From assembly GCA_002633005.1 (NCBI GenBank), contig NMRA01000686.1:124001-188000 (forward strand): a stretch of 64,000 nt of DNA, given 5' to 3'. Position 1 is the stretch's first letter. Each line of letters opens with the position of its first letter. Under the pieces are notes generated by a model. The model did no database searches and was not told where the DNA came from. It saw only the letters and a program-made list of their open reading frames with translations. Positions 135 to 63,616 of the stretch are shown piece after piece. Source of the stretch: Phoronis australis (lineage: Eukaryota > Animalia > Phoronida). A program made the translations under genes and the position numbers.

Positions 135-232
135 GTTATCATGGACATCAATTGTGGCCTTGTTGGCCACTAACAGCTCCACTATCTGTGAATGACCACC
201 CTCTACCGCCCAGTGCAGCGGTGTCTGCCCCC
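135..232 (-). CDS. Gene A exon 6, ankyrin repeat (xGQTPLHWAVEGGHSQIVELLVANKATIDVHDN), 1 nt short as assembled; gene continues off the window
   Basis: The ANK motif is clear, but only 5 G lie between the acceptor AG and CAG ACA CCG (98 nt exon). This is a frameshift in a G run, so either a real lesion or a homopolymer error. Confidence 0.7.
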
Positions 233-4341: not shown

Positions 4342-4440
4342 CTCTTCAGCTGAATCCACATTGGCGTTGTTGGCCAGTAGCAACTCTACTATCTGTGTAC
4401 GACCAAACCATACAGCCCAGTGCAGCGGTGTCCGGCCCCT
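4342..4440 (-). CDS. Gene A exon 5, ankyrin repeat (RGRTPLHWAVWFGRTQIVELLLANNANVDSAEE)
   Basis: tacatag| and GAG|gtaatt, 99 nt, phase 0-0. Confidence 0.9.
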
Positions 4441-4749: not shown

Positions 4750-4848
4750 CTCATTACCGACATCCACCTTGGCCTTGTAGGCCACTAACAACTCCATTAT
4801 CAGCGTATGACCATGCCTTGCTGCCCAGTGCAGCGGTGTCCGGCCCCA
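4750..4848 (-). CDS. Gene A exon 4, ankyrin repeat (WGRTPLHWAARHGHTLIMELLVAYKAKVDVGNE)
   Basis: gcatag| and GAG|gtaatt, 99 nt, phase 0-0. Confidence 0.9.
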
Positions 4849-5413: not shown

Positions 5414-5509
5414 CTCGTCTCGCACGTTTACATCGGCCCCACCCTGCAGCAACCCCCTCACCACATCAGCCCTGCCCTCCTCTGCTGCGTCGTGTATGGC
5501 TGTCACGCT
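5414..5509 (-). CDS. Gene A exon 3, ankyrin repeat (SVTAIHDAAEEGRADVVRGLLQGGADVNVRDE)
   Basis: ttctacag| and GAG|gtaaaa, 96 nt. Homologous to 41727-41822. Confidence 0.88.
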
Positions 5510-16912: not shown

Positions 16913-16949
16913 ATTAGATACACCGACAGTTTGATCTAAACTTCCAGAG

Positions 16950-19017: not shown

Positions 19018-19107
19018 ATTCGTATCCAGTGGTTGGTTGACGTTCCATCCGCAATCTAAATATTTCACTAAATGTGTACAATTGCCATGTTTCACAGCTG
19101 TTCTAAC
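19018..19107 (-). CDS. Gene A exon 2, ankyrin N-cap (VRTAVKHGNCTHLVKYLDCGWNVNQPLDTN)
   Basis: tttttcag| and |gtaagt, 90 nt, phase 0-0. Homologous to 55382-55474. Confidence 0.85.
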
Positions 19108-20662: not shown

Positions 20663-20803
20663 NNNNNNNNNNNNNNNNNNNNNNNNNNNNNNNNNNNNNN
20701 NNNNNNNNNNNNNNNNNNNNNNNNNNNNNNNNNNNNNNNNNNNNNNNNNNNNNNNNNNNNNNNNNNNNNNNNNNNNNNNNNNNNNNNNNNNNNNNNNNNN
20801 NNN
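20663..20803. other. Assembly gap (N run)
   Basis: Run of n characters. Confidence 1.
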
Positions 20804-26960: not shown

Positions 26961-27272
26961 CTACTTGGGGCGTCCTCCGGGGAAGATATGTTGACACAAG
27001 TTGGCGTCATGCTGATGAATAAAGTCATAGATGCACTCTACTCTGACTCCTTGCTCAACGGTATTCAGATGGAATTGACCTTGTGGCAACACTATATTAT
27101 GTCCACTCGTGTGCATGACAGCCAAACACGCCTCCTGTTGGTCGTCAGCTACAAACCCTGGGCTTCCTGAGCTGCCGGGTCCGAACCTTGAGCTAGATTG
27201 GTAAAGCACTCGACGTCTGTCAGCTAATGTGTTGTACGTTTCGTTGTTAGATTGTGTGTAAAGTTGAAGAAG
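26961..27272 (-). CDS. Gene B exon 12, protease C-terminal part with catalytic Ser (..LYQSSSRFGPGSSGSPGF..LAVMHTSG..VEQGVRVECI..) and stop
   Basis: attgcag| acceptor in phase 0, TAG at 26961. GxSGSP + MHxxG + ExG..I pattern as in FAM111 proteases; Ser codon at 27168-27170. Confidence 0.9.
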   Translation of the reverse strand, partial: LLQLYTQSNNETYNTLADRRRVLYQSSSRFGPGSSGSPGFVADDQQEACLAVMHTSGHNIVLPQGQFHLNTVEQGVRVECIYDFIHQHDANLCQHIFPGGRPK

Positions 27273-30200
27273 CTGCAATTGTAATAAGCTGAATCAAAAA
27301 AACGGTGTCTTATACTAATGAATAGTTACTGCCACCCATCCATTGCCACGTTATGAACACACTAGCTCATGCACTGATATACAAGCTGTACCCGTCTCGT
27401 GTCAAACTTTTCTAAAACCTACTTACTGGTATGAAAACTGGTCTCAAATGGATTCCTACTCAAATTTGAAGTGATTTTGGACTTATATGAGTTAATTATT
27501 TAATGTCACTTCCAAAGCGCAAATCACGTGAATTTGAGCTTACCCAATACACAGCACTTATCGATACAACTGGACTTATACCTCACATAAAATGGGCAGT
27601 CCTGTCAAGTCATCGTGTTGTGAGCTTAGGGAATTAAATTGCAGGCACTTAAAACAAAAATTTGTCTAAAGTTTGTTTCACTGAAGAAAGACGTCGTAAG
27701 TTTGTATGTTTTTGTCTTAATTTTGACTAATTTACCGGATGTCGAAGTCCCGAAGTTGAGAAAAATCTTAGACTTAAGGGAGAAAGGAACTTGAGTCGTT
27801 TTCTTGGAAGGGGTCGTCTGGCTGGTTGTATGAAACAGTCTGAAATAGGGACTCAACTAAGGTCCCTAAGTCTTTTTGCGTATTTGTGTCTCTATGGATA
27901 ATACATGTATAACTAAAATCTGAGCCCAGAGTCCTTTGAAAATAAATAGGGACTCGGCCCTTTACTTGGAGGTGTTGCTTGAAAAGATCCCCAATTATTT
28001 TTGATACTGACAATTCAGCGTAGAGTTTACTCTGGATTTGCAGCGAAAGTTGACTTAGTAATGAAACTTAAACAATTTAAGAAAAAGTAATAGGTATTTT
28101 CACAAGTCCAACATTACCCAGTAGATTTGGGGAGCATAGTTGAGTCCCCATTTGGTACTGTTTCAAGCTACAGGGTGCTGGTCTCTAACAAGCTCAGTTC
28201 TTGGTGAGATCCTAACAGTGTGAGAGGTAATAACCGGATGAACGGGTCTAAGTCAGAACTTGATATTCACAGTTTATCAAAGAAACTTTATACAGGGTTT
28301 TGTTTTGTAAATGTGTTGCCCTCGTTTATAAGTGCACTGTGGGCTTTAATACTTTATATTTCACAGATACTGTAGTTGTGTTAGACATCGGTAGTTTGCT
28401 GCACGACTTAAAAACAAGTGCAACACATTTTGTTTGACCAAATAATAGAGTGACGTAACGTGTACCTGTGCTCTATGCATGTCGGATAAGTGCTCAATTT
28501 TACATTGAGTATCCAAAACCTTCTCGTGGCCGTCAGGATGGCCCGCAAAGTGCAGGTATTGCTGTCCCACGATAACTTTAAAACTAGTCAGTGGTGTCGG
28601 CAGCGAATGATGGTCTAGCCTCTGACACTGATTGAAGGCTGCCGGAAGTGTAGCGTTGAAATCTAGATCCACGATAGCCACGTCGAGGTCATCGTCACAA
28701 GCTAAGACTGAGAGGATGGGCGCTGCTTGGACTGAGCTCATACATTGCATTAGTGCCTTGTTAAAGTGAAAGAGAACAGCGTTGCTTCCAACTGAAACAG
28801 AGAGACAAAATACATGTAAATGATAAAGTGATCTGTAGAAATCGGGAGCCACACAGTGGCGCTACATGTGCATGTAATGGCCATCTCGGTGACAAAAGTA
28901 ATTTTCTGAATATAGTAGCGCAAAATCGAATCCACCAGCTCCGCGGAGCAGCCTAACGCTCTACTGCAAGGCGAAATTCCGCACGTTTACTAGCTGTAAA
29001 AATAGATTATAGAGTATTTAAATGGTAAAGATACCCGCTGATTTCTGCCAATGTCTTGCAGACAACAGCGAGAATTGGCAAATCGTAAGGTCAAAAACAA
29101 ATCAAAGGATGTTGTTTTTTTATAGCTATGATCCAAATTAATAACTTCAAGGTATCAATCCAACCCAACAACAATCCTAAGGAGGCCGTCGTAGAACCGG
29201 CAATGAGGTGATTTACAAATCAAATCCAACTTGAATCGTTCAGTTAGTCCATATTTTTGCAAAATATAAAAAGCTATGAGTGTAGGGATATTCAAACTAG
29301 ACGACTGCAGTCTTGAAGTAATTTTTAAGTCCACTTCATCAGAGGTGATGTGGAGCCGGGAACTACATGGCACTGGTTGAAATGTTTGGTTTGAAGGGTC
29401 ATCTGGAGGTGACGATCACTACAAAAATTATATATACTCGAACAGTCGATACTCCGAAAGGCAGTTATATCATACCAATTCTGTGCGGTACAGGCCAAGT
29501 AGTCTTACCTTTACTGGTTTTGAGTATGATCTAATTTTAAAGTATAGAACTTGAAGGATAATAGAGAGATTAAACTGCCACACCCAACCGCACATGGACC
29601 CATGCTAGGATGTCACCAGGGAATGACGTAACAAGAGGAATTAACGCAGCGTTCAATTTCAAGCCGTGTTTTCGGTCACCATTTTCTAATTGAGGTCACG
29701 TGATGTTCTGATGCTGGCATGATACTGTTCTTTGGCCAAAATAGGGATGGTGGGTGGGATCGCACAGAACTCAGACATTATTTATTCAGATCGGCCAACG
29801 AGTGACCTCAGATCTTAGGAGCTTTCGTTGGAATGAGGAATCAAGATTAAAGAATCAAGAATTAAGAATCTTTATTTAACGTCGTTCAAAGAACATATTG
29901 ATGTTAGCCGGTAGGGCTAATTCTACGACATTAACTTTAACAGAAATATGAAGAAAATAGGACTTAATTTAAAGATGGATAATAACACATAGATACAGGT
30001 GTGAATAAAAGTGAAGTTGCCATAATCGCTAAAGTCTAGTCTAGGAAATGAGGTAGTAATTCCTAAACTTTATTTTTTTGTGTTTAACGTTAGGATTATG
30101 CCTTTAAATTTCCAGTTAGCCTGGGATAGAACACTTAGCGAGTTATTGCTAGTAAACTTGTATTATAAAAATACATTTCGTCAGCTTTGGGGCCTCCTTG

Positions 30201-33200
30201 AAGTAACAGTAAGCATGTTGTAAACAGCGCCCGAGGCAGTTTAAGTTTTGTAATGGAAAGTTAGAAGTCAATGTTTGTAAACAAAGTTCGACATGCGTTG
30301 CGTTTTGTAAAACTACCGATAACTAACGCAGGAAGTTATTTTAATGACACAGTTTGTAAGAATGAGCGCCTTTTTACAAATAGACTTGTACTCAATGCAT
30401 TTTGTTTCAAGGGTGATAATACATGTATATGTAAAACGCAACATATTTTTGCCAAAATTGACCCCGTGTAGGGTAAACACGGCAACGAAACTGGACGGTA
30501 CTATGGGAACCCAACTATGAAGTGTGAGGCAAAATCACCAGAATGAAATTATGTCCACTAGAAAACATTTTTTCCAATTCGGAAACTTGATTTGAAAACC
30601 TAGCCTGTTGAAGACCAATCATTTTCATGTTCAACTAAATGATTTTGTGAAGTGCCCACTTGGGAAACCCCGTTCCAGAAGAGAGAGTCTCCGACTAGAT
30701 GACGTGGATGTGGTACGAGGTCGCAGTGCGTATTCAGAGTTCGGATAGGGGGCTAAAGAAAGTTAGAAGGGGCTGCATTTAATAACATAAATGTACTAAA
30801 AATGGTGCCATTTGGCGTGGTAACCCTCAGTCCGAATCACCAACCCTTTCCCGTTCAACTTGCTAAAAACTCAGTTTTGTCTTTCTTACAATTTATTGAC
30901 TCTAGATCCGCCTCTGCAGCAAATACCGAGGCAAAGCAGACAGACTTTATATTTACACAGCTGGTCACAACAACATGTTTCGGTGTTCACAGCACATATC
31001 ATCGCGATAGATGTCGATGTTGACGTAATATAGGGTGACAATATGTGTCCAGTTCAACAACGTGGCTTCTGCTTGTCGCAAAGCTCAGCACTTCCAAGTC
31101 AAATAATTCACAAATCTATGTACATGTAGTAGGCTCCACCGAATTTTCCTTACATGATTGAGGAAACAGTCAATCCTGCATTGACCAGGTCGTCATAATT
31201 ATTTGTCACTTAGAAAAATGACATTGCTCCCAGAACGATACGCAAAATCAGATAGTGAAAATAAGACAACGGGGGCATAAACTACGCAACGCCTTAAATT
31301 CTGAAGAGTTTATGAAAAACAACGTTTTCAAGAGGTCTGTGTTGATTCTCCGACACATACATCTGTACATGTACAGTTAACATGTACATGGACATGTAGC
31401 AGCAGTATCATCAAGGTAGGAATTGTGAATGACAATGGTACTGGATACCTGTATGCCACTGCATATCATGCGTGCACCCAGGGGGGGGACTCGGGAGTTC
31501 GAACGAGCCCCTCCCCCAATTTGGCGAAGTGGGCAAAAAGGTCCGCCTCAGAAAAACAAAAACTCCGAAAAAAGAGGCAAAAGTCCATTGAAAACACGCA
31601 GACGCTCAATTTACAATTTCCAAGGTAGTACCCTCATTTTTTGTTTAGTCCTACCGATATTTTGTCGGCAAAAGGTCCGCACCGACAGAAATTCGAGCCA
31701 TCCCACATTGAAGGCTGGGTGCGTGCATGCATACACAGAAAAGTGGACTTCAAACCGAGATTTCAAGTGGCGAGCTGATTTAACCGGCATCAGCTTGTAC
31801 TTACGCGGGACACTGAGCTCTTTTACAACGTGGCAATTTGTCATAACGTAGGTTGGACCAACGCGGAACCCAGATCCCAATCCATATCCATCCGACCTTG
31901 CAAGTAGAACGACAGACGGGAGCGCACGTGCTAAAGACTCGTGTAAGTGCGCCAACATCACCTTCTTATTAACATCATGGAACAGTGTGGTAGAGGCTGT
32001 GGGCGGTGGAGGAGGCTGTATGAGTGGAAAGTAATCTGAAACACATACACCTAATGCATGTTACAATAGTGTACTCGACAAGGAACAAAAGTGACACTTT
32101 CAAGATTTCCATTGAAACAGGCAATTGGCTATCAACTTAAATTCCTCCTTGGAATTAATCATTTACCCGACAGCCTTGTATTCACACCCAATATGTCCAA
32201 TATGCCGTCGTTTCTCCTCTTTACTTTTAGGTTGACGTCTGCTTCTCCGTCGGGGATAAATTTGCCTTCAGATTTGGTAAATTCTTCGAGTACTGCACCA
32301 AACTGCTCCTCAACCGGAGGAGCACACGCTCCTAAAGTTTGGTCGGATGCACGTTCAGTAGCTCCTCTGGCCCCACGCAATCGAACTTCAATTGTATGCC
32401 CGTGCTTTTTTTCCAGTTTCGTTATATCTCTTTGAAGTTCCATTTGCTTCTGAAAATGACATTGGAATATCTTTTAATCCCAGTGGCTGTTCAGGATAAC
32501 TTTCTAACACACTAAAAATCAACAACGAGCCATCTTGCGTCATGAAATTTTCCTTCGTAAATTTAAAGACGGGATTTTGAAGAACTGAGAGTTTGTTATC
32601 GCTTTAGATCCGGCTCAACATGCTGGTTTATATCGACGTGTCACTTTAAGCGCCGAACGTGGTCTCTTCAAACAGCATATATTCACAATTATGCAGAACG
32701 AGGTTCACATCAAAAGTTCGCCTCTTGTGCTAAGTATGCTCAAGTGGACCATTTGACTGCAGGTGGCTCGAGATCGTATTACAGCTAGTGTGGCCTGATA
32801 ATTACACCATAGTAACAAGTATATGTATATGGACCATTGTTATTTGTTGAGTACCTTAAGGATAGTTTTCGTTTTCTTGACCTCATCTTTGTCTGCATAA
32901 CCGTATATACCGCAAACGTCCAGGGCTGTTTTATTTTCCTGTAAATATAGAAATGCACGAATCTATGATGGACTATTGCGAACACCAAGAGGCGAAAGGG
33001 AAAGAAAACTGGTTGTTGAATCGTATTTAACGAGACACAATAAGAACAAAAACGACAATAGTATGTTGAACATATAGGATCTGACGAACGAAGTTTATGT
33101 TTCGAAATAATTTGAAGGTGTGCTTCACAATGACGTGGAGATAAATTTGCAATCTTAAGTTCATCACTTGTTTACGCAGAGTCTAAGAACTTCCCCATCA

Positions 33201-39200: not shown

Positions 39201-42200
39201 CTTCTTAAACGAGGTGAGAAAATTATATGTGCCCGTTGTCGACCATTTATGGAGAGGTTGGTATGTCTTTAGTTTGTGCCAAAATATTACAGACAAGAGG
39301 CTTTGATTTACTGAGTGTTCTAGTGAAGGTACATGCAGTGAAGAAGTGGCTCTTTGTTTGACTCCAGGCAAGAAGCAGGTCATTTTCGATGATATATTTG
39401 TTATAAATGAATAATTCCACGAACTCAATGTTCGTTTAAAACACATTTAATGCAGTCTCAACTAAACAACGAGTAGAACACTCTTGCGATACCTTGTTGA
39501 CGGTATTGACGTCGCATCCGCTTTCCCTGCACAGTAGTTTCACTACCTCTGTACGTCCACGTTCAGATGCGTTGTGCAGCGGTGTGTCACCCGACTACAG
39601 TAAGTGAACAAAAATAGATAATGTTGATCAGCATTATACAGTAGTGATGTGGGTGGGTGAACAGGTCGCCAACTTAAAGACTTTTTAAGTTCAAAACTTC
39701 ACCATCACTTGTCATACTTATGAAGTGAGTGACTCAAAATGACGAGAGTAAAAACTGACCTTTAAACTCAGACATAATCTGCCCCGGAATTTTTAAAGGT
39801 CAGTCTGATTAGATGTTATCCGATTGAAAAGAGTACTATTCTAAAATATGACATCAGGATTTTATATATAACAACAGAGTGACATTCATGCATATAGTGA
39901 GTGCTGTGGAAATACAAGAACCAAGTCACCGTGCAAGTCTCAGTGAACTGATTGTACAGAGCGACGGTTTTTTAATTATTTAAAGTCGCGTGCACGTCAC
40001 GTCACGTGCGGTGGAATGCAAGGAAAAATGTCAAAGTTTGCAACTAAATCATAATGGTGATTTATTAATGAAATCACCGAAAGGTTCAATCTAGTCGCGC
40101 GTTGTGTGTTCAACTAAACAACCTGTGTGTCATTACTTACCAACATATCACGTACATCTACACTGGCCTTGTGGGCCAACATCACCTTCACTGTTTCTGT
40201 ATGACCACCCTCTGCTGCCATGTGCAGCGGTGTCACGCCCATCTATGTAATACATAATGGAGATGTGTGAATGGACGATCAACGTTTAGAGCTAATTAAC
40301 ATACACAGGGGAAAGTGAACTTATAAGGTGACATAATGAAACATTACTGACCCCTCTAAGACGCTACAATACTTGTAATGATTTCAAGAACCAAGCGTTA
40401 CAGATTTTAAAACGTTACAGAACATGTTACAACTCTACGCAGCTTTGGTTCTTCACCAATCAAAAGCAGACGACATATAACTTGTCATTGTTTTAGGACA
40501 ATAAATTGTGAAAAATATCAACAAAATTTGTTCCTAAACAGTTTTAATCATCGTGTGTGTAAACAACTAGTTCAACTAAACAACCTGTGTGTCATTACTT
40601 ACCACATCACGTACATCTACACTGGCCTTGTTGGCCAACATCGCCTTCACTACGTCTGTATGACCACACTCTGCTGCCCTGTGCAGCGGTGTCCGGCCCT
40701 CCTATGTAATAAATAATGGAGATGTGTGAATGGACGATCAACGTTTAGAGCTAATTAACATACACGGGGGAAAGTGAACTTGTAAGGTGACACAAATGAA
40801 ACATAAGTGACCCCTCTAAGACGCTACAATACTTGTAATGATTTTAAGAATCAAGTGTTAAAGATTTTAAAACGTTACAGAACATGTTACAACTCTACGC
40901 AGCTTTGGTTCTTCACCAATCAAAAGCAGATGACATTTAATATGATATTGTTTTAAGGACATTAAATTGTAGAAATATCAACAAAATTTGTTCCTAAACA
41001 GTTTTAGCCATCTTTATGTGAAACAACTAGTTCAACTAAACAACCTGTGTGTCATTACTTACCACATAATCACGTACATCTACACTGGCCTTGTTGGCCA
41101 ACAATACCTTCACTGTGTCTGTATGACCCCACAGTGCTGCCATGTGCAGCGGTGTCCCGCCCAACTATGTAATATATAATGGAGATGTGTGAATGGAAGA
41201 TCAACGTTTAGAGCTAATTAACATACAAGGGGGAAAGTGAACTTGTAAGATGACATAAATGAAACATTACTGACCCCTCTAAGACGCTACAATACTTGTA
41301 ATGATTTCAAGAAGCAAGTGTTGCAGATTTTAAAACGTTGCTGTAACAACAGAACATGTTGTAGACGTCGACTGCAAGAAATTACAGAGTTCCTCCATAA
41401 CTTGACAGCGATCCCGCCATGTTGTATTTCTTCACTGGTTTAATTGCTTCGTGTTTAATATAAAGTTGTAATGTTGAATGGACGATTGTCATTAAGAATA
41501 GAAAAGTGGACGTTATTAAAGTCGCTAAATGTGTTGGTGACATGATTCAAACTTCAGTTTCTTAAGATGATTGTGCCCCTGCAAGTTGAAAAATACATGT
41601 CAAAATATTGAGAAACAAAACGTGCATTTACAAACAAAATATTTAGTTGAACTTCAAAGTCTACAGCTTTTGTAATAAAGATAACATTGTCTTAATTCTA
41701 ATGTCGTCTCAAGTAGTTTCTATTACCTCGTCTCGCACGTCTACATCGGCCCCACCCTGCACCAGCACCCTCACCAACTCCGTCCTGCCCTCCTCCGTTG
41801 CTATGTGAAGTGCTGTCTGGCCCTGCAGAAACAATGAACAATTTATAGCAAACTTCACAATCATTAACTTCACTGTGAATCTTAATTACTCATCATGCAA
41901 ACGTTCAAATAACTCATTTCCACACAAAATTACCAAATCTACTCTATGTTTACCTGTTAATTAACAGTCGTGGTTGGAATATATCATCGTGTCAGTGTCA
42001 ATAGTAATTCTTTCAGTGTAGACATGAGATATTCCTTAAAAGTATGCAACATTTATGAAATTACGCACACCTGGTTGTAGCTAACACGAGCTATCACTGT
42101 TATTGGAGAAAACCTGTCCTTGATATTCGCACTAATAATCACCTCTAAGAGCACAATGTCATGAGAATAAAATGTTCAATCCCATTTTTGTTTTTAGGGG

Positions 42201-45200
42201 CATAACCAGCTAAACAGGGGGAAAAGCAACTTGCTGGAAAATCAATTCCTTGATGAAAAAAGGAGGCAATAGACGACAATGCGCGGCACATGTACTTTAT
42301 CGGCTATACGCGGAAGTTGCGAATATATTGGTAAAATCGTCGTACTCATGCGGTTTGCTTTTATTAGTGGGTCTACCTGAAACCAACACTTACTGGACGC
42401 ATCGATTCAAAAGCATGCTTAAACTTATGAATTCTAGACTCTAACAATAGGGATATGAGACTATTTTCTTTGGCAAGAAATTATTTCTAAATTTGCGTAA
42501 GGAAGAAATGGAATAGTGGGACGAGAGAACACAATGATACAGCTTTACAAGGTCAATGTGACATCAGGATGGGATAATACTGGGACTGAAATATTAAATA
42601 GTTTCAGGAAAAAACGGTTGGAGTGTATTGTTGATTAGGAACCACAGGCACGGGGAAACATGTTCAAGAGGTCAACACGACAACAGCATCGAACAAAATG
42701 CCAAATGGCAAAATCACTTCGCCAAAATGTGCTGGCAAAGACTAAACCCTTGTATAAATTTTGAACACGTTGAAACACATGTTACCAAAACCTTTTTCCG
42801 ATGTGTAAAATCAATTACGCGAATGTTACCATTCCAACGCACATCCAAACAGTTATAAAATTATTCTCTTGTGCAGACTTCAAACGACGACGTCCAGACA
42901 GGCGAAGAGTTGCCTTCAAAATGCAGCACTTAGTCAGACAGTTTTCACGTGTACACGCGATAAATTGATACAACAGCCTCTTGCTGGGTAGGAACAGGAG
43001 AAGAATTGCTTTTAAAATGTAGCACTTTGCCTGCCAGTTTTCACGTGTATACGCGATGAAATGATACACTTGCCTTATCTTGATTATATTTAAAGGAACA
43101 TTTCCTGATGATAGGGAAGTGATTAAAGATACAATGCAGCATGACCAATCTCAAGAAAAATGATCGCAGTTTGAACTTTTGATAGTCGTGTTGATCCCAT
43201 TTTCAACACAGACGTTCTGAAAGATGCGTTAGCGCAATTATACCTCGTTACTGACAGTTTTAGACAATCAGCTTGTTCAACACTTCGTTTAAACAGATGG
43301 TGCGATAGGTTTAAGTGATATCAGAAATATGCGGTGCCAAGTAATTTCATTTGTAACGGTATGATCTCGACAGCTTTTACTGATGGCAAGCAACAAACGT
43401 GTACGGAAAATTAAACGTCAGCCTCAATTTGATGTTCTGTCACTAGACTAAACTAGCCGACTGATCTTGAACCCCACTTCGACACAAACAGATAAAAGAA
43501 TTTACAATTTGTACACATTAGGACGAGTAATATAAAAGGGAAATGAAAAATACCTTACTGAATAATAGCATTGGCCCCTTAAAGAATAGAAATATTATGC
43601 TGTACCTTAAGCCATTTATCGTTTAAAAACTAAATAAATAAAATCTTTAAAACGTCATTGGTTTTTAAAAAATCACCGCCGTGGTAACAATGAGTTGCGC
43701 TTACGTCGGTCCATCTACATGTAATTATAGAAGAAAATTTGGAAATCAATCAGTAGACATTTATTTGTACGTGAACACTGTACTTCACGTGACTAAAATG
43801 TTCAAAATGAGATGGGTGGACTTTTGTGTGAAAAATGGCCCCTGATGAGAATGAAGCACTCATTGTGTCCATTCTAATAGGTTTGAGAAGCTTATCTTGG
43901 GTTGGCAATATAAGAGTGACGTTTACAGTAGTGCATTGATTTTATTTATTTATTTATTTATTATTGTGATATTTACATGTAAAATGAGGGTGGCCTCTTC
44001 AGTGATAGCACTGCTTTCCAAGAGGGCCCTCAACAAGAAAAACAGTAATATAATACAATGAAGTAATAAAACAACAATGAAATATACGTAACAAAGATAC
44101 AATTAAAACAGGTAGAGAATTAAGACAATAACTAAATGACAAATAATGGTAAAAATTAACTAAGACAGATGAAATATATTAGAGATGATTCTAGACAGTG
44201 AGAGTATTTACGACAAGGAAAAAATGACATGATTAAGACAGGCAGGGTATAAAAGGTCAAGTAAATTACAGCCACTTTTAATATTTACTTTAAAGGTAGT
44301 AATTGAATTGGCCCGTTTAATTTCTGGGCTAAAAGAATTCCACATTACAGCAGCTGCATAGATAAAAGACCTCTTGCCCGTCTCGGGTTTAATTTTTTTA
44401 GAAGAAACATTGCCAGAGATATACTGAAGCCAAGCCATTGATACATCTGTACATACAACAGGCAGAGAGATATTTATTTCTTTGATTTACTTTCATAAAT
44501 CCCAGCTTGGAATACAAGTCGTCAACCCTGGTGTCCCCAATTCTAGTACCCAGGATAGCCCTGGCGGCTCTATCTTGGATTACTTGGACTTTGTTTACAA
44601 GTGTGTCACTAGTGTGCCCCCAAACCGGTAAACAATAATCAATATGAGGCTGAATAATAGAATGGTAAAGTGTCTTAAGAGTACTGACATTAAGAAATTT
44701 GTCTAGACGTTTAAGTACACCGATTTTCTTTGATAATTTCTTTGTGATATGATCTATGTGCATATTAAATTTAAGATTGGGATCTAAAGTAAGGCCCAAG
44801 TACTTAAAGTTGTCAACATTCTCGATGGGAGAACCGTTGATAGAAAGGGATAGTTTTAAAGAACAAGATTACGTCGCCATTGGTACCAATTCCCAAACAC
44901 GACTGATTCCTGTAACTTACAGTTCACTCGTAGTGGTTAATTGGATAACCAACTCTCATCGATTGTACCTCTGTGAACATCTAAAATATGTCTTAGGTAA
45001 GACCGGCCGCATGGCCATGACTAAAATCTTCCTAATTTACTAACAAGGTTACGTCGTTCCTGTAAACTGACGTCTAATAGAGACGTTTTGAAAAGCGACG
45101 TGAACGTGAACTATCACGCAATTTCTGTATAATACCGAGTCATACATGCCACTGTTGGATGTGGCACAATCCCGGTAGTGTCCGAGTATTTTACGCGAAT

Positions 45201-51200: not shown

Positions 51201-54200
51201 TTATATCTGAACCTGAATGGTGGAGTTATTCTCATAATTATAGACGTCTATGCATTGTATTGGCCGATGAACTGTCACTTGATCGCACCATCGAGTCTCT
51301 GGCAGTAAAATCAATTTCTAATCAACCTACGGAAACATGTATCGCATCTTCGTTGCATGTTTTCAAATCGTTTGCATACACCTACTTTGACTATTATGAC
51401 GTAATCTACTAAGCAGAACTTCATGTAAGCAGATGGTGTAGGACCTTAACTTTGTTTGACACGAACAGAATACAGTACCAGGCTGCAGTAAACATTACCG
51501 GGCGGTGTCACGAAAGGATCGAACACAATCGAAAGTCTTTAATGGTCCAAGTTGTCATTGTGTTGAAAGCCGCATTCAAGTGTTAACACATCAAGTTCTC
51601 AACAAATTAAAAAATATACCCAAAAAAAAGTTCGAAAATCATCTATTACAAAAACCTAGATGTGGGTATAATTCAACAGCATTAGAATCTCGCCAGGACC
51701 TTTGCGAGATTCTGTACGCCTGTGATCTGATAAATATCTTCTTTAATGTTCCCCTGTTGTTCATGTTAATTCGATTCCCGAACTTAATTTTACATATTGC
51801 AATTGCCCAATCTAGAGAATTGGAAATGACATACCTTATTCAGCATATTAATTTCGACGGTGCGTGAGAGGGAAAAACTAAAAATTTGCGGTGACGTGAC
51901 AAAGAATTTCCCGTATAAGAGTACGATTACTTTTACTACATACGACAAAAGCATACAAAAAATTAACATTGTGAACAAGTTGCGTAAATAATACATTTCA
52001 AATTGTGATGTTCAATCACGACTTCACAACTGCTTCTTGGACCCCGTGGTTAACAAAAATTGATAGCCGTAGTACTAGAACGTCAAAAAATTGATAACCT
52101 CCATTCATTAAAATAACGCCAAAGAGCAACCAGTGGTACCAAAATAAATAAAGAACGTCACTATAACATCTATAGATGAAATAATAATAATTGTCTTTTG
52201 TGCGACTTATTTGTTTGAATGTCAACGGCTTAAGTAAATGTTGAAAACCTGGTACATGTACTTTTGTATTCAATTTAAGTATAATTATTATAATCGAGTA
52301 ATTTGCAAAACTCCTGCAAAATCAAATGACCATCTGATTTAGCAAACGCTAAAACACACGCCTAAAAACCAGTTGCGGATTTAAGGGGGGGGGGGCAAGG
52401 GAGTCATGAGCCCCCTAAAATTCTCCCAGGTACCATGAACAAACCCCGTTTTCGGCTAAATCACAATCAAGGTCCATATTCGAGAGTTGACAGTGTTACG
52501 GTCTAAAATAATTTTTTTGGTCACTTACCAAATGCCAATTAAATCTGATATGCAAATAGTTATTCAGTTGTGCAAATTAAAAAAAGAATCATCAAAATCG
52601 GACAATGTTTGAGAAACTTATGCATGTTTTTGTCTATGAATTTCTTGCATTTTTAGCGTTACGAGTGGCCATTTTAAAAATAACAAATTTCAACTGACAC
52701 CAGTAGTAAATAAATTTATTTTATCAAGCAAGCAAATGCTTGGATATGGCTGGGAACAACTTGGGTCACTTTCAAGGTTAATTAGATGAAGTTGTTCTTA
52801 ATCACTGAGAAATGGTAGGGTTCATCGTAAAACTGGAACTCGTTACAAAATTTGTAAATTCTGTGTTTCTAACCCTCACCTACTGTAAAGAAGGTTAAAA
52901 ACTAAAGTTCACACCCTGTAATGAAAAGAACTGCAAAATATGTCAGCCTAAGCAACACAGCAAACTATTCACTATCTAAACAAACCAAAAGTTTGGATAT
53001 TGACTGGGTTCTGCTATGTTGAAAATGGGCCAAAAGGGCTAACAAAATGTAGTGTACGTACCCCCTAGTGGAATTCAGTAACACAAATGGACATTGCAAA
53101 TGAAATTATTGCCCTTTAAATAAGAACATAGTGCTTATTATCACCAAAGAAAAATAAATGTCCATACAACATTATGTTACCATGTGATGCAGAAACAGTG
53201 ATGTAGTGTACGTACCCCCTTTTGTAGTGTACGTATCCCCATATTTACAAATGCCATGAAATTAAAATAACACTCGGTAAGTTAGCAACATTGTTCATAG
53301 ACAGTTTCCTTCCTTAAAAGTATTAGGTTAAAAGAGTGTTTATTGCCAATGCATTTGTTTTGAGTGAAATATTAGCGGTTGTGTAGTGTACGTACCTCCA
53401 TATTTTAATTTGTGCCTATTTTCAAAGTATGGCAGATATGCCTATGAATGTTGTGCTTTTATTGTTTCTCTTTGAATTGATTTAGTAAATCAACTAACTC
53501 TCAGTCGATTCTTAATATTTAGTTACAAACCTGACATGTCATTGAAATGCAGTGTACGTACTCCTGTGTAATGTGCGTACCTTCAACCTCTGTGCTATAA
53601 ACTATTGCTCATTAGAGGTTTTACATACTGCTGTTCTCATGAACAATACTGATATTTCCAAAATGAATACAGTCTGACAAAAAAAACAATGGACATTATC
53701 AAATTTGTAGACAATAAAATGCCACAAAGGACTTGGCTAGTACTCAAAATCCTAGAAGACACGTCATGTGATAACTGATACTGCAGAGGCAGGTTCTCTA
53801 TCTCCCAAGACAACTTTAACTTGCAATAAGCCAACAAGTAGAGGAGGCACAAAACTCAAGACCATTCCATACAGTTGTAACTTAGTCAAAATTTGACGCT
53901 GATTGACTTTTCGTAGTGTACGTCACCCATCAACCAGTAACATTTTTACTGTTTACAAGTGGAACACTGGCACTAGCATTGCTTAAAACTATTTAAACCA
54001 ACTAGTGAATTTATTGAAAACTAGGCAAATAGCACCAATAAAGTTTTTGAAAAAAGTAGTTACTTGTCATTTTCTTTTTGTAAGTATCATATTGCAAGAG
54101 AAGAAGTTATCATTATACTGTGTTAAGATAAGCAATGTAATGATCATCTAGAACAACTGGATCAGCACGGTAACGGCTTTTCTTACCTTACTATGTGACA

Positions 54201-57200
54201 CTTCTTCAAATTGATCAAGAACTTATTAAATTAACAGCTACCTTATGAGTTTTTGCATGATAGAAGTGTGCTGTGACCACAAGTTGTAGTGTACGTACCC
54301 TTTTATACAGATGTGATGCATTAGGCCATAAAACTTTATTCGGTGGTTCTTGTGCAAATATATTTTAGATTGCAAACCTGGAATGATGGTACTTTATAAT
54401 AACCTAGCTTTTATAGTTATATGACAACCTTAAGTTTTCACCAAAAGTGGCCACCGAATAAGGACCTTGATTGTGATTTGCCCGTTACCGTTTTTTGTAA
54501 TAAGGTCTACAAACCCCAAGATTCGAGACCCCTGCATCCCTACATTTTAGGCTGGGCGCTCTCGTGGCAATATTCTGGTTATTCCTGTGCCTTGGCCCCT
54601 CCTAACTCAAAATCCTGGATCTGCCCCTGACAACAGTGTCTCGGAATCACAAAATCACAACATGGTCATCTACTAAACTCCAAGCACTTGCGGCTAACAG
54701 CACTTCGGGTAAAATAGCTTAGATTCTGGTCTGTATTTCTCGAAATATGAAGTCCTACACCGTATTCTAGTAGTGCACCTTCACTCAAAAGTCATGTAAT
54801 ATAACCTAAATTGACGCTTTGACACCACCAACGGTCCAGTAACTGAAGTCGAAAGGGGCTGTGACTGTGACCAAAAATGGAACACTTGGCTTTGGAAATG
54901 CATATAAGTCAAAAGAAGCGGCATTAATCCCTTTCATCATGGCAAAACAGTTTTCTTTGTGGACATGTCGATTACTAATACGAAATTGACCTCGGTCAAA
55001 AAAGGTAATTTCATAGTATTTTAAAAAATGTATGCAGTTCCAATTTCATTCTGAAGAAATGACTGCGCCTCACTATTATTAATCATCCACTAAGTCCATT
55101 CCCCTAAGCAAAATCCGAAGTAATTGTACAACAGCTACGTGGATGCTTTGCAAAAGTGCACACCTGCTTGACAAAGACAACTCCTTCATTCACTTAACTT
55201 TACCTAAATGTTTGACCGAAATTCTCGTGAGCTCTGTTAGCAAAGATAAAAATGGTTAACAGTTACAGTGCAGATATCAAATAGATTCGACCTATAAGGC
55301 AACACTTGTACAGAAACTTTCTTTTAAAGGTGCACTTCAAGCCCGTGATGACGAAAATAGTGTTCATGAGTGAATACTTACTAAAAGATTATTCAGTTGC
55401 TGGTTTACGTCCCATCCGCTCTTTAAATACTTCTCCAGAGTAGTACAATCACCATTCCACGCGGCTCTTTCAACCTGAAAATATTAATAAGTAAATATGG
55501 ATTATACATGACACAGCGTATGTGCACTATAATTATGGAGTCAACTTTACAAGCCGGGAGCTCTTTAGATGATATGAAAATTCCAAATACATGATTTTCT
55601 ATTTAACATTTTGCTTCTACTAGCTAAACAGTACGTTTACAAAGAGAGATGTCACAAAAGTATACCTAATTTTCTCAAGTTCGATAAAAAAACTTATGAA
55701 TACTATAATGCTGAAAAATTAAATGCACATAAAAACCTTGTAGATGACAGATTCTCTGCAAAATGGGAAAAATTTATTGTTCATGTTAACTTCATGTAGA
55801 AGATACTTACTTTAAACGAGATATGAGAATGGTCTTCCTGAGGTGTGCATGCGTGTACTTATTTGTTTTGTTTTGTTTGTTTTTGTAATTGTTTGTAAAC
55901 GATAATAAATACATAAAAACATGGAAAAAAATTCCAAAAGGGTCGGGTTGCCGCTGGGTTTTGATAATTGAAACAACGTGAACACGATCAATGTATTTGG
56001 TAGACTTCTTCCTCCAGAGAATCCTTCGTGATTGGACCATTTTATTGTCATTTTCATTTCAATGTATTATGTTTAATTTCAGTTTCCCCACAAGATGCCA
56101 ACTGGGGTTGGTATCCTGCCCTCTCAAACAATGTTTGGATAGGTACATGTAGTTGGCCCTTAGGTATATCTAGAGGACATTTATCCATTTAGGCCCAGTC
56201 TCGAGTTGGAATACATTGACTCATGCATTGTCCAGGTGCATCTCCTAGTGTCTTTGTCCGTTGAGGTTACGGTTCCTTTAGGTATTCAAGGTTTTGGTGG
56301 CATCATCTTGAGAATGTGCGGAAACGAGGATGTTAAGTGGGTGGGAAGGACGAAACAGATGCGTTTCAGAAATCATCTTTTATCGATGCCTACGGTACGC
56401 ATTTCACACTAGCCAAAACATTAGATTGGTCTGGAATATGGCTGTGTGCAGTCACCGACTAGAATCTTGATTCAGGCAACATGACAATTTTTATGTGTTT
56501 GCACTGCATTATTCTAGAATCTGAACGTTAATCATAAAAAGGACTGTGATGCGCGAGAATTAAATCAGTGCAAGATAAGCGCAAATAATTGCAATTGTGC
56601 CAATGTTATATTTACCCCCCCCCCTCTTTCTCACGCTCACCTGTTCCGTGTTCTCATAACCCCTATTTAGGGAACTTTGGCGCACACAATCACTTTTATA
56701 TTTGGTTGTTTGTACTTCATTCTAGCCCGGATTAACCCTATCCAATATTACATGTTTCTTTAGTATTATTTTTTTGTATTGCTACATATCATTTCCATGA
56801 TCAACTATCGTTATTGAATAATAGCATTTACCAAACTTGCCTAGTATTCTTGTACAGCGAACCAACTGGAGTTGATATAACGTGCTACTATGAACGACAT
56901 TAGTGATGCACCGTATTTGAATCATGTCCAAATTTCTCGGTCAAACTAACAATCGCTGGATACACGACGAATAAATTCGTCAGTGGCCTTGTGTTCGTGT
57001 AGTGAATTGCCTCTTATTCGCACACAGAACTTGTCGGGACAAAGAATATGAACTTGACACTATAAAAATGCTCAGGGTGGAAAACCTGATATTGTACACG
57101 TAGTTTATTGTTGGATTTGAAAAGAACTTTTAGTAGTGTATATATTGTTCATTGACGTGGGCTCAATACGCGAACTTGCTTATGGTTCGCGCCGGCATCA

Positions 57201-63200: not shown

Positions 63201-63616
63201 GCTCCGCCCCTCGTTTGCTGTGACGCTGGAAAATTCCCAGCTCACGCCATATTTTGTGACTGCACAAGGCCATTGCAAGGGTAAATGGGGGACTAATTTA
63301 AAACTGTTGTTTTTTAATGTGACCCGAGTTTGGATCTCAAACTGTACATGCTGTAATATCTAATCAAAATATCTTTACAAATTCATAAAACTTAGGTTGT
63401 GATGTTATAATTATAATGTCAGCTAGACCGGTTGTGAATATAGCGCCTAGGCGGATTAAACAATCAAATTTCGATAAACATATTCAGCATAAAACAAATA
63501 AAAGACGAGGACCCAAACATGTTTCAAGGACGACGAAATGAGGGAGTTTAGACTCTCACCTCTAGCAGTTCTTCCCTACTGAGACGAACGCCGCCTGATT
63601 TTTTGCTCTCAGCCAT
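26961..63616 (-). CDS. Gene B: spliced ankyrin-repeat + FAM111-like trypsin-fold serine protease, 12 coding exons, 628 aa; join(63560-63616, 55382-55474, 41727-41822, 41063-41164, 40603-40701, 40141-40242, 39493-39594, 32855-32938, 32167-32449, 31805-32035, 28466-28791, 26961-27272)
   Basis: All 11 introns are GT..AG with compatible phases (0 for introns 1-8, then 1, 1, 0). The spliced length is 1887 nt with no internal stop. Ankyrin TPLH/TALH motifs are in exons 3-8, and the protease motifs GSGFRVG..VMTNCHVV, DDDLDVAIVDL, HFAGHPDG and GSSGSPG..VMHTSG are in exons 10-12. Confidence 0.85.
28466..28791 (-). CDS. Gene B exon 11, protease middle with catalytic Asp (..DDDLDVAIVDL..HFAGHPDGHEKVLDTQC..)
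   Basis: ctgtttcag| and CAG|gtacac, 326 nt, phase 1-0. Matches the FAM111-type LDxA..L and GHPxG..K..D..C pattern; Asp codon at 28682-28684. Confidence 0.9.
29860..30270 (-). mobile_element. 3' end of an L2/Crack-like LINE
   Basis: Short tandem tail and AATAAA on the minus strand, a 3' stem-loop, and a degraded 'LKLPR...GPK' C-terminal remnant. Confidence 0.4.
31467..31729. mobile_element. GC-ended MITE in intron 10 of gene B
   Basis: TIR CATGCGTGCACCCAG ... CTGGGTGCGTGCATG with a G-run and C-run interior. Confidence 0.65.
31805..32035 (-). CDS. Gene B exon 10, protease N-terminal part with catalytic His (..SVVLLARSDGYGLGSGFRVGPTYVMTNCHVVK..)
   Basis: gtttcag| and C|gtaagt, 231 nt, phase 1-1. 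GSGF..TNxHV is the trypsin-like (PA clan) His motif; His codon at 31830-31832. Confidence 0.9.
32167..32449 (-). CDS. Gene B exon 9, linker (KQMELQRDITKLEKKHGHTIEVRLRGARG...VNTRLS)
   Basis: cattttcag| and G|gtaaat, 283 nt, phase 0-1. Coincides with ORF 32159..32443. Confidence 0.82.
32855..32938 (-). CDS. Gene B exon 8, ankyrin C-cap (ENKTALDVCGIYGYADKDEVKKTKTILK)
   Basis: atttacag| acceptor, AAG|gtactc donor, phase 0-0. 'TALD' is the typical terminal ANK motif, and this exon bridges the ankyrin block to the protease block in frame. Confidence 0.8.
39493..39594 (-). CDS. Gene B exon 7, ankyrin repeat (SGDTPLHNASERGRTEVVKLLCRESGCDVNTVNK)
   Basis: ctgtag| and AAG|gtatcg, 102 nt, phase 0-0, TPLH motif. 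Confidence 0.9.
40141..40242 (-). CDS. Gene B exon 6, ankyrin repeat (MGVTPLHMAAEGGHTETVKVMLAHKASVDVRDML)
   Basis: tacatag| and |gtaagt, 102 nt, phase 0-0. Confidence 0.92.
40603..40701 (-). CDS. Gene B exon 5, ankyrin repeat (EGRTPLHRAAECGHTDVVKAMLANKASVDVRDV)
   Basis: tacatag| and |gtaagt, 99 nt, phase 0-0. Confidence 0.92.
41063..41164 (-). CDS. Gene B exon 4, ankyrin repeat (LGGTPLHMAALWGHTDTVKVLLANKASVDVRDYV)
   Basis: tacatag| and |gtaagt, 102 nt, phase 0-0, TPLH motif. Confidence 0.92.
41727..41822 (-). CDS. Gene B exon 3, ankyrin repeat (GQTALHIATEEGRTELVRVLVQGGADVDVRDE)
   Basis: ttctgcag| and |gtaata, 96 nt, canonical ANK consensus. Paralogue at 5414-5509. Confidence 0.92.
42904..43068. 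repeat. Two-copy 96-bp tandem duplication
   Basis: GAAGAGTTGCCTTCAAAATGCAGCACTT..CAGTTTTCACGTGTA.ACGCGAT is repeated at 43000. Confidence 0.8.
43941..44853 (-). mobile_element. 5'-truncated Crack/CR1-clade LINE (RT C-terminus, 3' UTR, (TAAA)n tail), recent and B-specific
   Basis: FKYLGLTLDPNLKFNMHID..LYHSIIQPHIDYCLPVWG..QDRAARAI..GKRSFIYAAAVMWNS, a terminal GAGGG..CCCTC stem, and an empty site in copy A at ~6705. Confidence 0.92.
48908..49039. mobile_element. Small MITE
   Basis: TAGGGGCGGATCCA ... TAAATCTGCCACTA ends. Confidence 0.6.
51090..51560 (+). mobile_element. Old CR1-like LINE relic (paralogous copy)
   Basis: Homologous to 16950-17400. Confidence 0.55.
52370..54629. mobile_element. 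GC-ended MITE split by the 52453-54484 insertion
   Basis: CAGTTGCGGATTTAAGG ... CCTGGATCTGCCCCTG ends; empty site in copy A at ~18125. Confidence 0.6.
52453..54484 (+). mobile_element. Non-autonomous TIR transposon (family copy 2)
   Basis: TIR CGGCTAAATCACAATCAAGGTCCATATTC / GAATAAGGACCTTGATTGTGATTTGCCCG, homology to 14770-16912, and repeated GTAGTGTACGTACCCC. Confidence 0.88.
55382..55474 (-). CDS. Gene B exon 2, ankyrin N-cap (VERAAWNGDCTTLEKYLKSGWDVNQQLNNLL)
   Basis: ttttcag| acceptor, |gtaagt donor, phase 0-0, AAxxG..L..G.DVN pattern. Paralogous to 19018-19107. Confidence 0.85.
55500..55920 (+). mobile_element. 3' end of an L1/Tx1-clade LINE
   Basis: LLLLAKQYVYKERC..P.F..F..Y.AEK..F.AKWEKF followed by a T-rich 3' UTR and AATAAA. 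Confidence 0.7.
57604..59473 (-). mobile_element. Non-autonomous TIR transposon (family copy 3, inverted)
   Basis: TIR CGGGCAAATCACAGTCAAGATCCATATTC / GAATATGGACCTTGACTGTCATTTAGCCG, perfect TAT target duplication, and GGGGTACGTACACTAC motifs. Confidence 0.88.
60150..60720 (-). mobile_element. Degraded, internally deleted L1/Tx1 LINE fragments
   Basis: SCGSSYSRGVC..D..G (endonuclease 'SNSRGVAIL' motif) and KWTNTQYTYLGII (RT 'YLGI' motif). Confidence 0.55.
63560..63616 (-). CDS. Gene B exon 1 (MAESKKSGGVRLSREELLE)
   Basis: ATG GCT start and GAG|GTGAGA donor. Same length (57 nt) as, and homologous to, 22068-22124 in gene A. Confidence 0.8.

What the first reader, a model, noticed from the sequence alone, without database searches (positions are those of the whole stretch)
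40141..41164. Natural-DARPin pattern: duplicated ankyrin exons differ almost only at binding-surface codons
Seen in the sequence: exons 4/5/6 have codon 1 TTG/GAG/ATG (L/E/M), codon 3 GGG/CGG/GTG (G/R/V), codon 8 ATG/AGG/ATG, codons 11-12 CTG TGG/GAG TGT/GAG GGT (LW/EC/EG) and variable ends (DYV/DV/DML). The framework codons (GGC..ACA CCG CTG CAC..GCA GCA..GGT CAT ACA..AAG GCC AGT GTA GAT GTA CGT GAT) are identical. I find only one clear synonymous difference (GTA/GTG, codon 20). Gene A repeats vary at the same sites (W/R, RH/WF/EG). Established: these beta-turn and helix-1 positions form the ankyrin binding face and are largely those randomised in DARPin libraries, and similar hypervariable high-identity repeats occur in fungal NLR sensors. 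Inference: diversifying selection for ligand recognition.
Basis: partly seen in the sequence, partly recalled or inferred. Interest (0 to 1): 0.85.

Follow-up and report, generated by a model that had tools for sequence, protein, structure and literature searches.

The report
Hypervariable ankyrin array on FAM111-like protease
In an expressed animal gene, three near-identical ankyrin-repeat exons change far faster at the codons predicted to form the binding face than at silent or intron sites, and they are predicted to sit on one protein with a FAM111-like protease, likely a fast-evolving defence sensor that cuts, or is switched on by, what it binds.

Summary
The listed codon differences are real, but 'almost only at binding-surface codons' overstates them: five further codons (16, 17, 20, 21, 24) also change amino acid. 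The selection signal holds up. Binding-face codons show 0.79 amino-acid changes per site against 0.076 in the duplicated introns. A home-made codon model gives omega about 9 over six exons. In RNA of other samples, 9 of 13 binding-face non-degenerate sites vary, against 1 of 18 fourfold-silent sites. The exons are expressed and spliced to each other. There is no NACHT or NB-ARC domain, so it is not an NLR. Best reading: a one-exon-per-repeat, concertedly evolving ankyrin sensor likely aims or activates an intracellular protease in defence; the function is inferred, not shown. I found no ankyrin-FAM111 fusion in 28 fetched relatives or in two paper searches pairing the terms. The scan's notes hold no earlier finding of this architecture.

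The parts
63560..63616 (-). Gene B exon 1, start codon; no signal peptide
   Evidence: homologous to gene A exon 1
55382..55474 (-). Gene B exon 2, probable N-terminal capping ankyrin-like repeat (inferred; no Pfam hit)
41727..41822 (-). Gene B exon 3, ankyrin repeat
   Evidence: its end is joined to a B4/B5-type exon in 17 RNA reads of X7 (loose ends)
41063..41164 (-). Gene B exon 4, hypervariable ankyrin unit (34 codons)
40603..40701 (-). Gene B exon 5, hypervariable ankyrin unit (33 codons)
40141..40242 (-). Gene B exon 6, hypervariable ankyrin unit (34 codons)
40108..41339 (.). Tandem array of the 463-bp exon+intron unit, 2.7 copies
39493..39594 (-). Gene B exon 7, ankyrin repeat; a B7-like exon is joined to itself in RNA of X6 and X7 (41 and 30 reads) but not X8
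32855..32938 (-). Gene B exon 8, probable C-terminal capping repeat (inferred from its T-A-L-D start)
   Evidence: RNA coverage
32167..32449 (-). Gene B exon 9, linker or unassigned domain (94 aa)
   Evidence: donor at 32167 fixed by RNA joints, 51/39/12 reads; no Pfam hit (on the 32162-32473 frame), no Atlas hit and no FAM111 N-terminal match; fold low confidence
31805..32035 (-). Gene B exon 10, start of FAM111-like protease with the catalytic His motif (H408)
28466..28791 (-). Gene B exon 11, protease with the catalytic Asp motif (D453)
26961..27272 (-). Gene B exon 12, protease with the catalytic Ser motif (S560) and stop codon
22068..22124 (-). Gene A (tandem paralogue) exon 1
19018..19107 (-). 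Gene A exon 2
5414..5509 (-). Gene A exon 3, ankyrin repeat homologous to B3
4750..4848 (-). Gene A exon 4, ankyrin unit
4342..4440 (-). Gene A exon 5, ankyrin unit
135..232 (-). Gene A exon 6, ankyrin unit, one base short at its start as assembled (run of G)

Best explanation
Gene B carries ankyrin repeats encoded one per phase-0 exon, whose binding-face codons diversify far faster than silent and intron sites, and it is predicted to join them to a FAM111-like serine protease, likely forming an intracellular defence sensor-protease. Steps: (1) shown: exon+intron units have duplicated in tandem, and phase 0-0 exons let units be gained, lost or swapped in frame. (2) Shown statistically: beta-turn and inner-helix codons (1, 3, 8, 11, 12, 33/34) accumulate amino-acid changes far above the neutral rate while silent sites stay nearly uniform. 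(3) Inferred: unequal crossing-over or gene conversion keeps units alike, and selection keeps new binding faces. (4) Inferred from an open 12-exon model: the array and the protease lie on one 628-residue cytosolic or nuclear protein. (5) Inferred by analogy with FAM111A: binding a changing foreign (likely viral) protein either delivers it to the protease or relieves autoinhibition and promotes dimerisation, so that the protease cuts the invader's protein or a host target.
For: Surface nonsynonymous rate 0.79 per site against 0.076 in introns, p 2e-6. Home-made GY94 model: surface omega 9.2 over six exons (p 2e-8), 5.6 for gene A alone (p 0.001); M1a vs M2a p 4e-4 over six exons. RNA of three other samples (444, 398 and 462 reads laid): 39 exonic variant rows shown, only 2 synonymous; 9 of 13 surface 0-fold sites vary against 1 of 18 fourfold sites, p 3e-4. 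The third positions of codons 3 and 11 show no variant while their first position (codon 3) or first and second positions (codon 11) vary, and the silent position of the CpG in codon 5 shows none, which argues against a local mutation hot spot. Exon-to-exon joints and minus-strand coverage show that the units are spliced and expressed. The model has no internal stop, matches a profile of 18 FAM111-like proteins at E 1e-35 (Z=1) and keeps His, Asp and Ser. The amphioxus protein that led to that family matches human FAM111A chains 8s9k/8s9l. FAM111A degrades a poxvirus protein and is blocked by a viral inhibitor (PMC13245274, passages); it needs dimerisation and appears autoinhibited by its N-terminal region (PMC10920703, passages).
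Against: No ligand, substrate, activity or infection response was tested. Among the joints shown, none links B7 to B8 or B8 to B9 (153 joints were not shown), so the fusion rests on the splice model, the open frame and coverage. The RNA reads mix alleles and paralogues (82% cut-off), come from one study, and X6 and X7 look like one genotype. Six variant rows were hidden; if all six were fourfold-silent, the count test falls to p 0.15. Seven of the 37 'N' rows (five at codon 1, two at codon 8) cannot be classed cleanly without phasing. Non-surface codons are not constrained as a class (omega 1.2; B-only 2.9 on one silent change), and M1a vs M2a is not significant for gene A alone (p 0.08). Recombination among units breaks the single-tree assumption of that model. 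Part of the intron is more diverged (24 mismatches in 94 columns, partly a gap-placement artefact), so the intron rate may understate the age of the units.
Confidence: 0.55

Rival explanations
1. The diversifying array recognises a polymorphic self or conspecific ligand (allorecognition, gamete or paralogue incompatibility) rather than a pathogen, and triggers the protease as fungal het-type NLRs trigger cell death.
For: The same signature (near-identical repeats with a few hypervariable contact sites) controls allorecognition in Podospora (PMC13449251 and PMC4986451, passages).
Against: No partner locus is seen in the window. The known FAM111A functions read here are antiviral and replication-linked.
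Confidence: 0.15
2. A nuclear genome-conflict factor: the array tracks fast-evolving transposon or other selfish-element proteins bound to DNA and brings the FAM111-like protease to clear them.
For: FAM111A acts at protein obstacles on replicating DNA (PMC10920703). The protein has no signal peptide or membrane segment.
Against: No PIP-box match and no similarity of the linker to FAM111 N-terminal regions.
Confidence: 0.12
3. Ordinary ankyrin tolerance plus gene conversion: surface codons are simply free to vary, and short conversion tracts from many paralogous units shuffle old variants in without selection for diversity.
For: Non-surface codons evolve near the neutral rate. Several codons differ at two or three bases. 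Many related units exist (134 X1 contigs on one exon). The intron is a mosaic of closer and more diverged parts. An earlier scan note on another genome judged old ankyrin duplicates with variable faces ordinary.
Against: Tolerance can bring omega to 1, not to 5-30. Neutral conversion would move silent differences too, yet fourfold sites are nearly uniform (1 of 18 variable), also at the third positions of hypervariable codons 3 and 11.
Confidence: 0.1
4. The ankyrin array and the protease are separate transcripts (an ankyrin-only gene plus a downstream protease gene), so the diversifying repeats are an adaptor with no built-in effector.
Against: All 11 introns are GT-AG and the joined frame is open for 628 codons. 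B8 looks like a capping repeat and lies about 0.4 kb from B9, whose join to the protease exon is seen in all three RNA runs.
Confidence: 0.08

Closest known systems
FAM111A/FAM111B trypsin-like serine proteases (PDB 8S9K, 8S9L) and amphioxus FAM111A-like proteins
   Same: Intracellular trypsin-fold protease domain at the C-terminus with His/Asp/Ser triad; 22-31% identity to fetched family members, best hits amphioxus.
   Different: The N-terminal part is an ankyrin array, not PIP box, UBL and ssDNA-binding regions. None of 28 fetched relatives has an ankyrin match.
Fungal NLRs with highly internally conserved ANK/WD40/TPR repeats (Podospora Pa_3_8560, het-e/het-d)
   Same: Near-identical repeats, hypervariable sites on the concave helix and beta-hairpin face, concerted evolution (PMC4986451, PMC13449251; passages).
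   Different: No NACHT or NB-ARC switch; the sensor is N-terminal and predicted to be fused directly to a protease; one repeat per exon; animal host.
Brown-algal LRR-ROCO and NB-ARC-TPR candidate immune receptors (Ectocarpus)
   Same: One repeat per phase-0 exon, exon shuffling, positive selection on the concave face, tandem genes (PMC3341825, passages; PMC11378527, abstract).
   Different: Ankyrin rather than LRR or TPR; protease rather than GTPase or NB-ARC; no inverted spare exons found in this window.
Designed ankyrin repeat proteins (DARPins)
   Same: The repeat aligns in register with DARPin repeats, and codons 3, 11 and 12 fall on positions that differ among DARPin repeats; randomised positions lie on the concave face (PMC8229355, passages).
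   Different: Natural, with a scaffold that is only partly fixed; codon 8 and outer-helix codons also vary; repeat length varies at the beta-turn.

Membership tests
FAM111 proteases | Trypsin-like domain homologous to FAM111A | tested here: met
   Profile of 18 FAM111-like proteins, E 1e-35 at Z=1, residues 358-623; link to human FAM111A is through P0003
FAM111 proteases | His/Asp/Ser catalytic triad | tested here: met
   H408, D453 and S560 align with the family motifs
FAM111 proteases | Intracellular (no signal peptide or membrane segment) | tested here: met
   Hydropathy scan only: maximum 19-residue mean 1.45, N-terminus hydrophilic
FAM111 proteases | N-terminal PIP box | tested here: not met
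   No match to a recalled PIP pattern
FAM111 proteases | UBL domains before the protease | tested here: inconclusive
   The linker has no hit to fetched FAM111 proteins, Pfam or the Atlas; single-sequence fold pLDDT 48
FAM111 proteases | Dimerisation through the N-terminal helix of the protease domain; Phe-P1 cleavage | not testable with these tools
   The segment before the first strand aligns with the family profile, but no activity or dimer was tested
NLRs with highly conserved repeats (fungal HIC NLRs) | Central NACHT or NB-ARC ATPase | tested here: not met
   The 628-residue model is ankyrin, a 94-residue linker and protease, leaving no room for one; no such Pfam hit in the 9 gene B frames scanned
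NLRs with highly conserved repeats (fungal HIC NLRs) | High internal conservation of repeats | tested here: inconclusive
   DNA identity 86-88%, protein identity 76-78%; T-REKS Psim was not run
NLRs with highly conserved repeats (fungal HIC NLRs) | Positive selection on the concave binding face | tested here: met
   position on the fold inferred from alignment, not from a model of this protein
NLRs with highly conserved repeats (fungal HIC NLRs) | Repeat-number polymorphism among individuals | tested here: inconclusive
   B7-like exon joined to itself in X6 and X7 but not X8; allele and paralogue cannot be told apart
Brown-algal exon-shuffling receptors | One repeat per phase-0 exon in tandem genes | tested here: met
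Brown-algal exon-shuffling receptors | ROC-COR or NB-ARC domain; inverted spare exons in introns | tested here: not met
   Neither domain is in the model; all nine good ankyrin hits in the window are on the coding strand

The most novel reading that the evidence does not exclude
An invertebrate family of germline-diversified 'natural DARPin-guided proteases': interchangeable ankyrin exon cassettes, shuffled within and between tandem genes, retarget a FAM111-type protease to new viral proteins without any NLR ATPase switch, giving an antibody-like, individually variable intracellular defence.
Probability: 0.35. Interest if true: 0.87.

Novelty: new variant of a known kind. Interest (0 to 1): 0.66.

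Why it matters
Hypervariable, near-identical repeat sensors are documented in fungal NLRs and brown-algal receptors, and highly conserved repeats are rare in animals (0.8% of metazoan ANK/TPR/WD repeats in Dyrka 2014). If the reading holds, an animal has put such a cassette array directly on a FAM111-like protease. That would point to an immune role for FAM111 proteases in invertebrates, add a minimal two-part sensor-effector design, and offer a natural model of a retargetable protease whose specificity can be tested by swapping single exons.

Tried and rejected
No whole genome is held, so genome-wide collection of units was not possible. The word-based protein search with exon 11 found nothing (weak evidence by the tool's own note). 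Two of three phmmer hits to exon 12 (P0001, P0002) were repeat-driven false hits. The Atlas gave no usable hit for exon 9 and did not answer for the protease. The exon 9 fold was too poor to search (pLDDT 48). No RNA run was listed as an indexed holder; RNA runs came by species label and were laid directly. Summed contig depth of X1 is far higher on the ankyrin units than on the protease exons, but the tool says it is no copy number, so I use it only as a hint of many related units. Assembly error rejected for most of B5 (table 8). CpG hypermutation as the cause rejected: the silent position of the CpG in codon 5 shows no variant. My first B9 donor (32188) and first B12 acceptor were wrong and were corrected. 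M7 vs M8 and MEME were not run; the codon model is my own small implementation. No complex prediction was run. Paper searches pairing ankyrin and FAM111 (25 of 35 listed, judged by title and abstract start) showed no such fusion, and two wider ones none either; the library lacks most subscription journals, and no supplements were read.

Full report
Observation. The three exons lie on the minus strand at 41164-41063, 40701-40603 and 40242-40141, each a Pfam ankyrin repeat with AG and GT ends in phase 0, inside a 463-bp tandem unit of exon plus intron. But codons 16, 17, 20, 21 and 24 also change amino acid, so 6 of 16 nonsynonymous events in codons 1-32 lie off the quoted positions. The title's 'almost only' is too strong.

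Is it more than chance? Among the three units, 16 nonsynonymous and 1 synonymous event are borderline by themselves (p 0.049-0.060). Using the co-duplicated intron as the yardstick (16 events in 211 shared columns, 0.076), codons 1, 3, 11, 12 and 31 show 9 events in 11.4 sites (0.79; p 2e-6), the rest 7 in 61.6 (0.11; p 0.45). That set is the DARPin randomised set as I recall it (positions 2, 3, 5, 13, 14, 33 of the 33-residue consensus; from memory, not from a call), placed by the alignment to DARPin repeats, and chosen after I had seen the exons. A home-made GY94 model on B4-B6 and A4-A6 gives omega 9.2 for the set (p 2e-8 against omega 1) and 1.2 for the rest; gene A alone 5.6 (p 0.001); M1a vs M2a p 4e-4 for all six, 0.012 for B, 0.08 for A. 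Recombination between units weakens such tests. The intron is also uneven: 24 of the 35 mismatches between units 5 and 6 sit in 94 columns, partly through gap placement, which hints at patchy homogenisation.

More copies. No genome is held, so I laid public runs. Three RNA runs of the same species (one study; X6 and X7 have nearly the same variant shares) and one DNA run were laid on exon 5 at 82% likeness. Of 46 variant rows, 40 were shown, 39 in the exon. Against the majority codon 2 are synonymous and 37 are not; 7 of these cannot be classed cleanly without phasing. Variable sites: 9 of 13 non-degenerate sites in the surface codons, 16 of 52 in other codons, 1 of 18 fourfold sites (surface vs fourfold p 3e-4; surface vs rest p 0.023; p 0.15 if all 6 hidden rows were fourfold). 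The most variable codons are 8, 1, 11, 12 and 33, then 16, 20, 17, 21 and 3. The third positions of codons 3 and 11 show no variant, nor does the silent position of the CpG in codon 5, so a mutation hot spot does not explain the pattern. The reads mix alleles and paralogues. They also show unit-to-unit splice joints, length variants at the beta-turn, and exon 3 joined to a unit with Phe at codon 1.

The whole gene. Comparing the two tandem paralogues in the window gives a 12-exon gene B from 63616 to 26961. RNA fixes the exon 9 donor at 32167 (51, 39 and 12 reads) and shows the exon 10-11 and 11-12 joints in X8 (28 and 26 reads); coverage is on the minus strand. The B7-B8 and B8-B9 joints are not among the rows shown (153 hidden). 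The joined frame is open for 628 residues: about seven ankyrin repeats with caps, a 94-residue unassigned linker, and a protease. Exon 12 found an amphioxus protein among 1.84 billion representatives (E 1e-4), which matches human FAM111A. A profile of 18 such proteins matches residues 358-623 at E 1e-35 (Z=1) with His408, Asp453 and Ser560 in place. There is no signal peptide, membrane segment or PIP box by simple scans. Identity to the amphioxus proteins is only about 25-31%, too low to place the organism beyond 'animal, likely a marine invertebrate' (inference). Gene A has the same first six exons and runs off the window, so its protease is not seen.

Mechanism. Shown: cassette exons, tandem duplication, diversification of binding-face codons, expression. 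Inferred: one protein; homogenisation by unequal crossing-over or conversion with selection keeping new faces; and a defence role. FAM111A degrades vaccinia I3 and is inhibited by poxvirus SPI-1 (PMC13245274, passages); its protease needs dimerisation and is more active without its N-terminal region (PMC10920703, passages). So an ankyrin array in that N-terminal place would plausibly recruit a foreign substrate or release the protease on binding. I put this at 0.55, with the selection pattern itself near 0.9. Rivals are allorecognition, a nuclear conflict role, neutral tolerance with conversion, and separate transcripts.

Comparison. [quoted passage not shown] It is a member of neither: there is no NACHT, NB-ARC or ROC domain. 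The protease domain is FAM111-like, but the architecture is not FAM111A's. None of 28 fetched relatives carries an ankyrin match, though those searches are word-limited and length-limited. PMC8195603 (passages) describes expanded ankyrin-bearing immune architectures in marine invertebrates and trypsin effectors in bacteria, with 0 mentions of FAM111. PMC8683736 and PMC8229355 (passages) confirm that DARPin randomised positions form the concave paratope but did not give the numbers in the passages seen. Paper searches (listings only) showed no ankyrin-FAM111 fusion. The scan's notes hold nothing for this genome or sequence and one unrelated, ordinary ankyrin duplication.

Verdict. A real, expressed, positively selected ankyrin cassette array, predicted to be fused to a FAM111-like protease: a new variant of the known hypervariable-repeat sensor kind, with an architecture I could not find described. 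Interest 0.66.

Noticed in passing
window 135-232 (gene A exon 6): One base short at its start relative to all six homologous exons, in a run of G; as assembled it shifts the frame. Either a homopolymer error or a dead exon or gene.
   Followed up: partly
window 1-22232 and 40108-63714: Old tandem duplication of the whole locus (about 65-80% DNA identity in blocks), giving genes A and B head to tail.
   Followed up: partly
window 39493-39594: A B7-like exon is spliced to another B7-like exon in RNA of X6 and X7 (41 and 30 reads) but not X8: possible repeat-number polymorphism.
   Followed up: partly
window 40585-40720, loose ends: RNA reads show further ankyrin unit types that share the first half of exon 5 but have a different second half, so the family is wider than the units in this window.
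   Followed up: no
window 41165-41515 and 39600-40003: Sense-strand RNA covers these introns at depth like the exons: retained introns or ankyrin-only short isoforms are possible.
   Followed up: no
window 53198-54487 and 57601-58867; 15302-16914: A 1.3-kb segment is present twice in inverted orientation (80% identity) around exon 2 of gene B, with a homologue in gene A.
   Followed up: no
window 44398-44868: 156-codon open frame that reads like the C-terminal part of a LINE reverse transcriptase (by eye; no significant Pfam hit).
   Followed up: no
window 32167-32449: The 94-residue linker exon has no assigned family; a low-confidence model suggests strand-helix-strand-strand.
   Followed up: partly
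window 20663-20803: Assembly gap of 141 N inside intron 1 of gene A.
   Followed up: no
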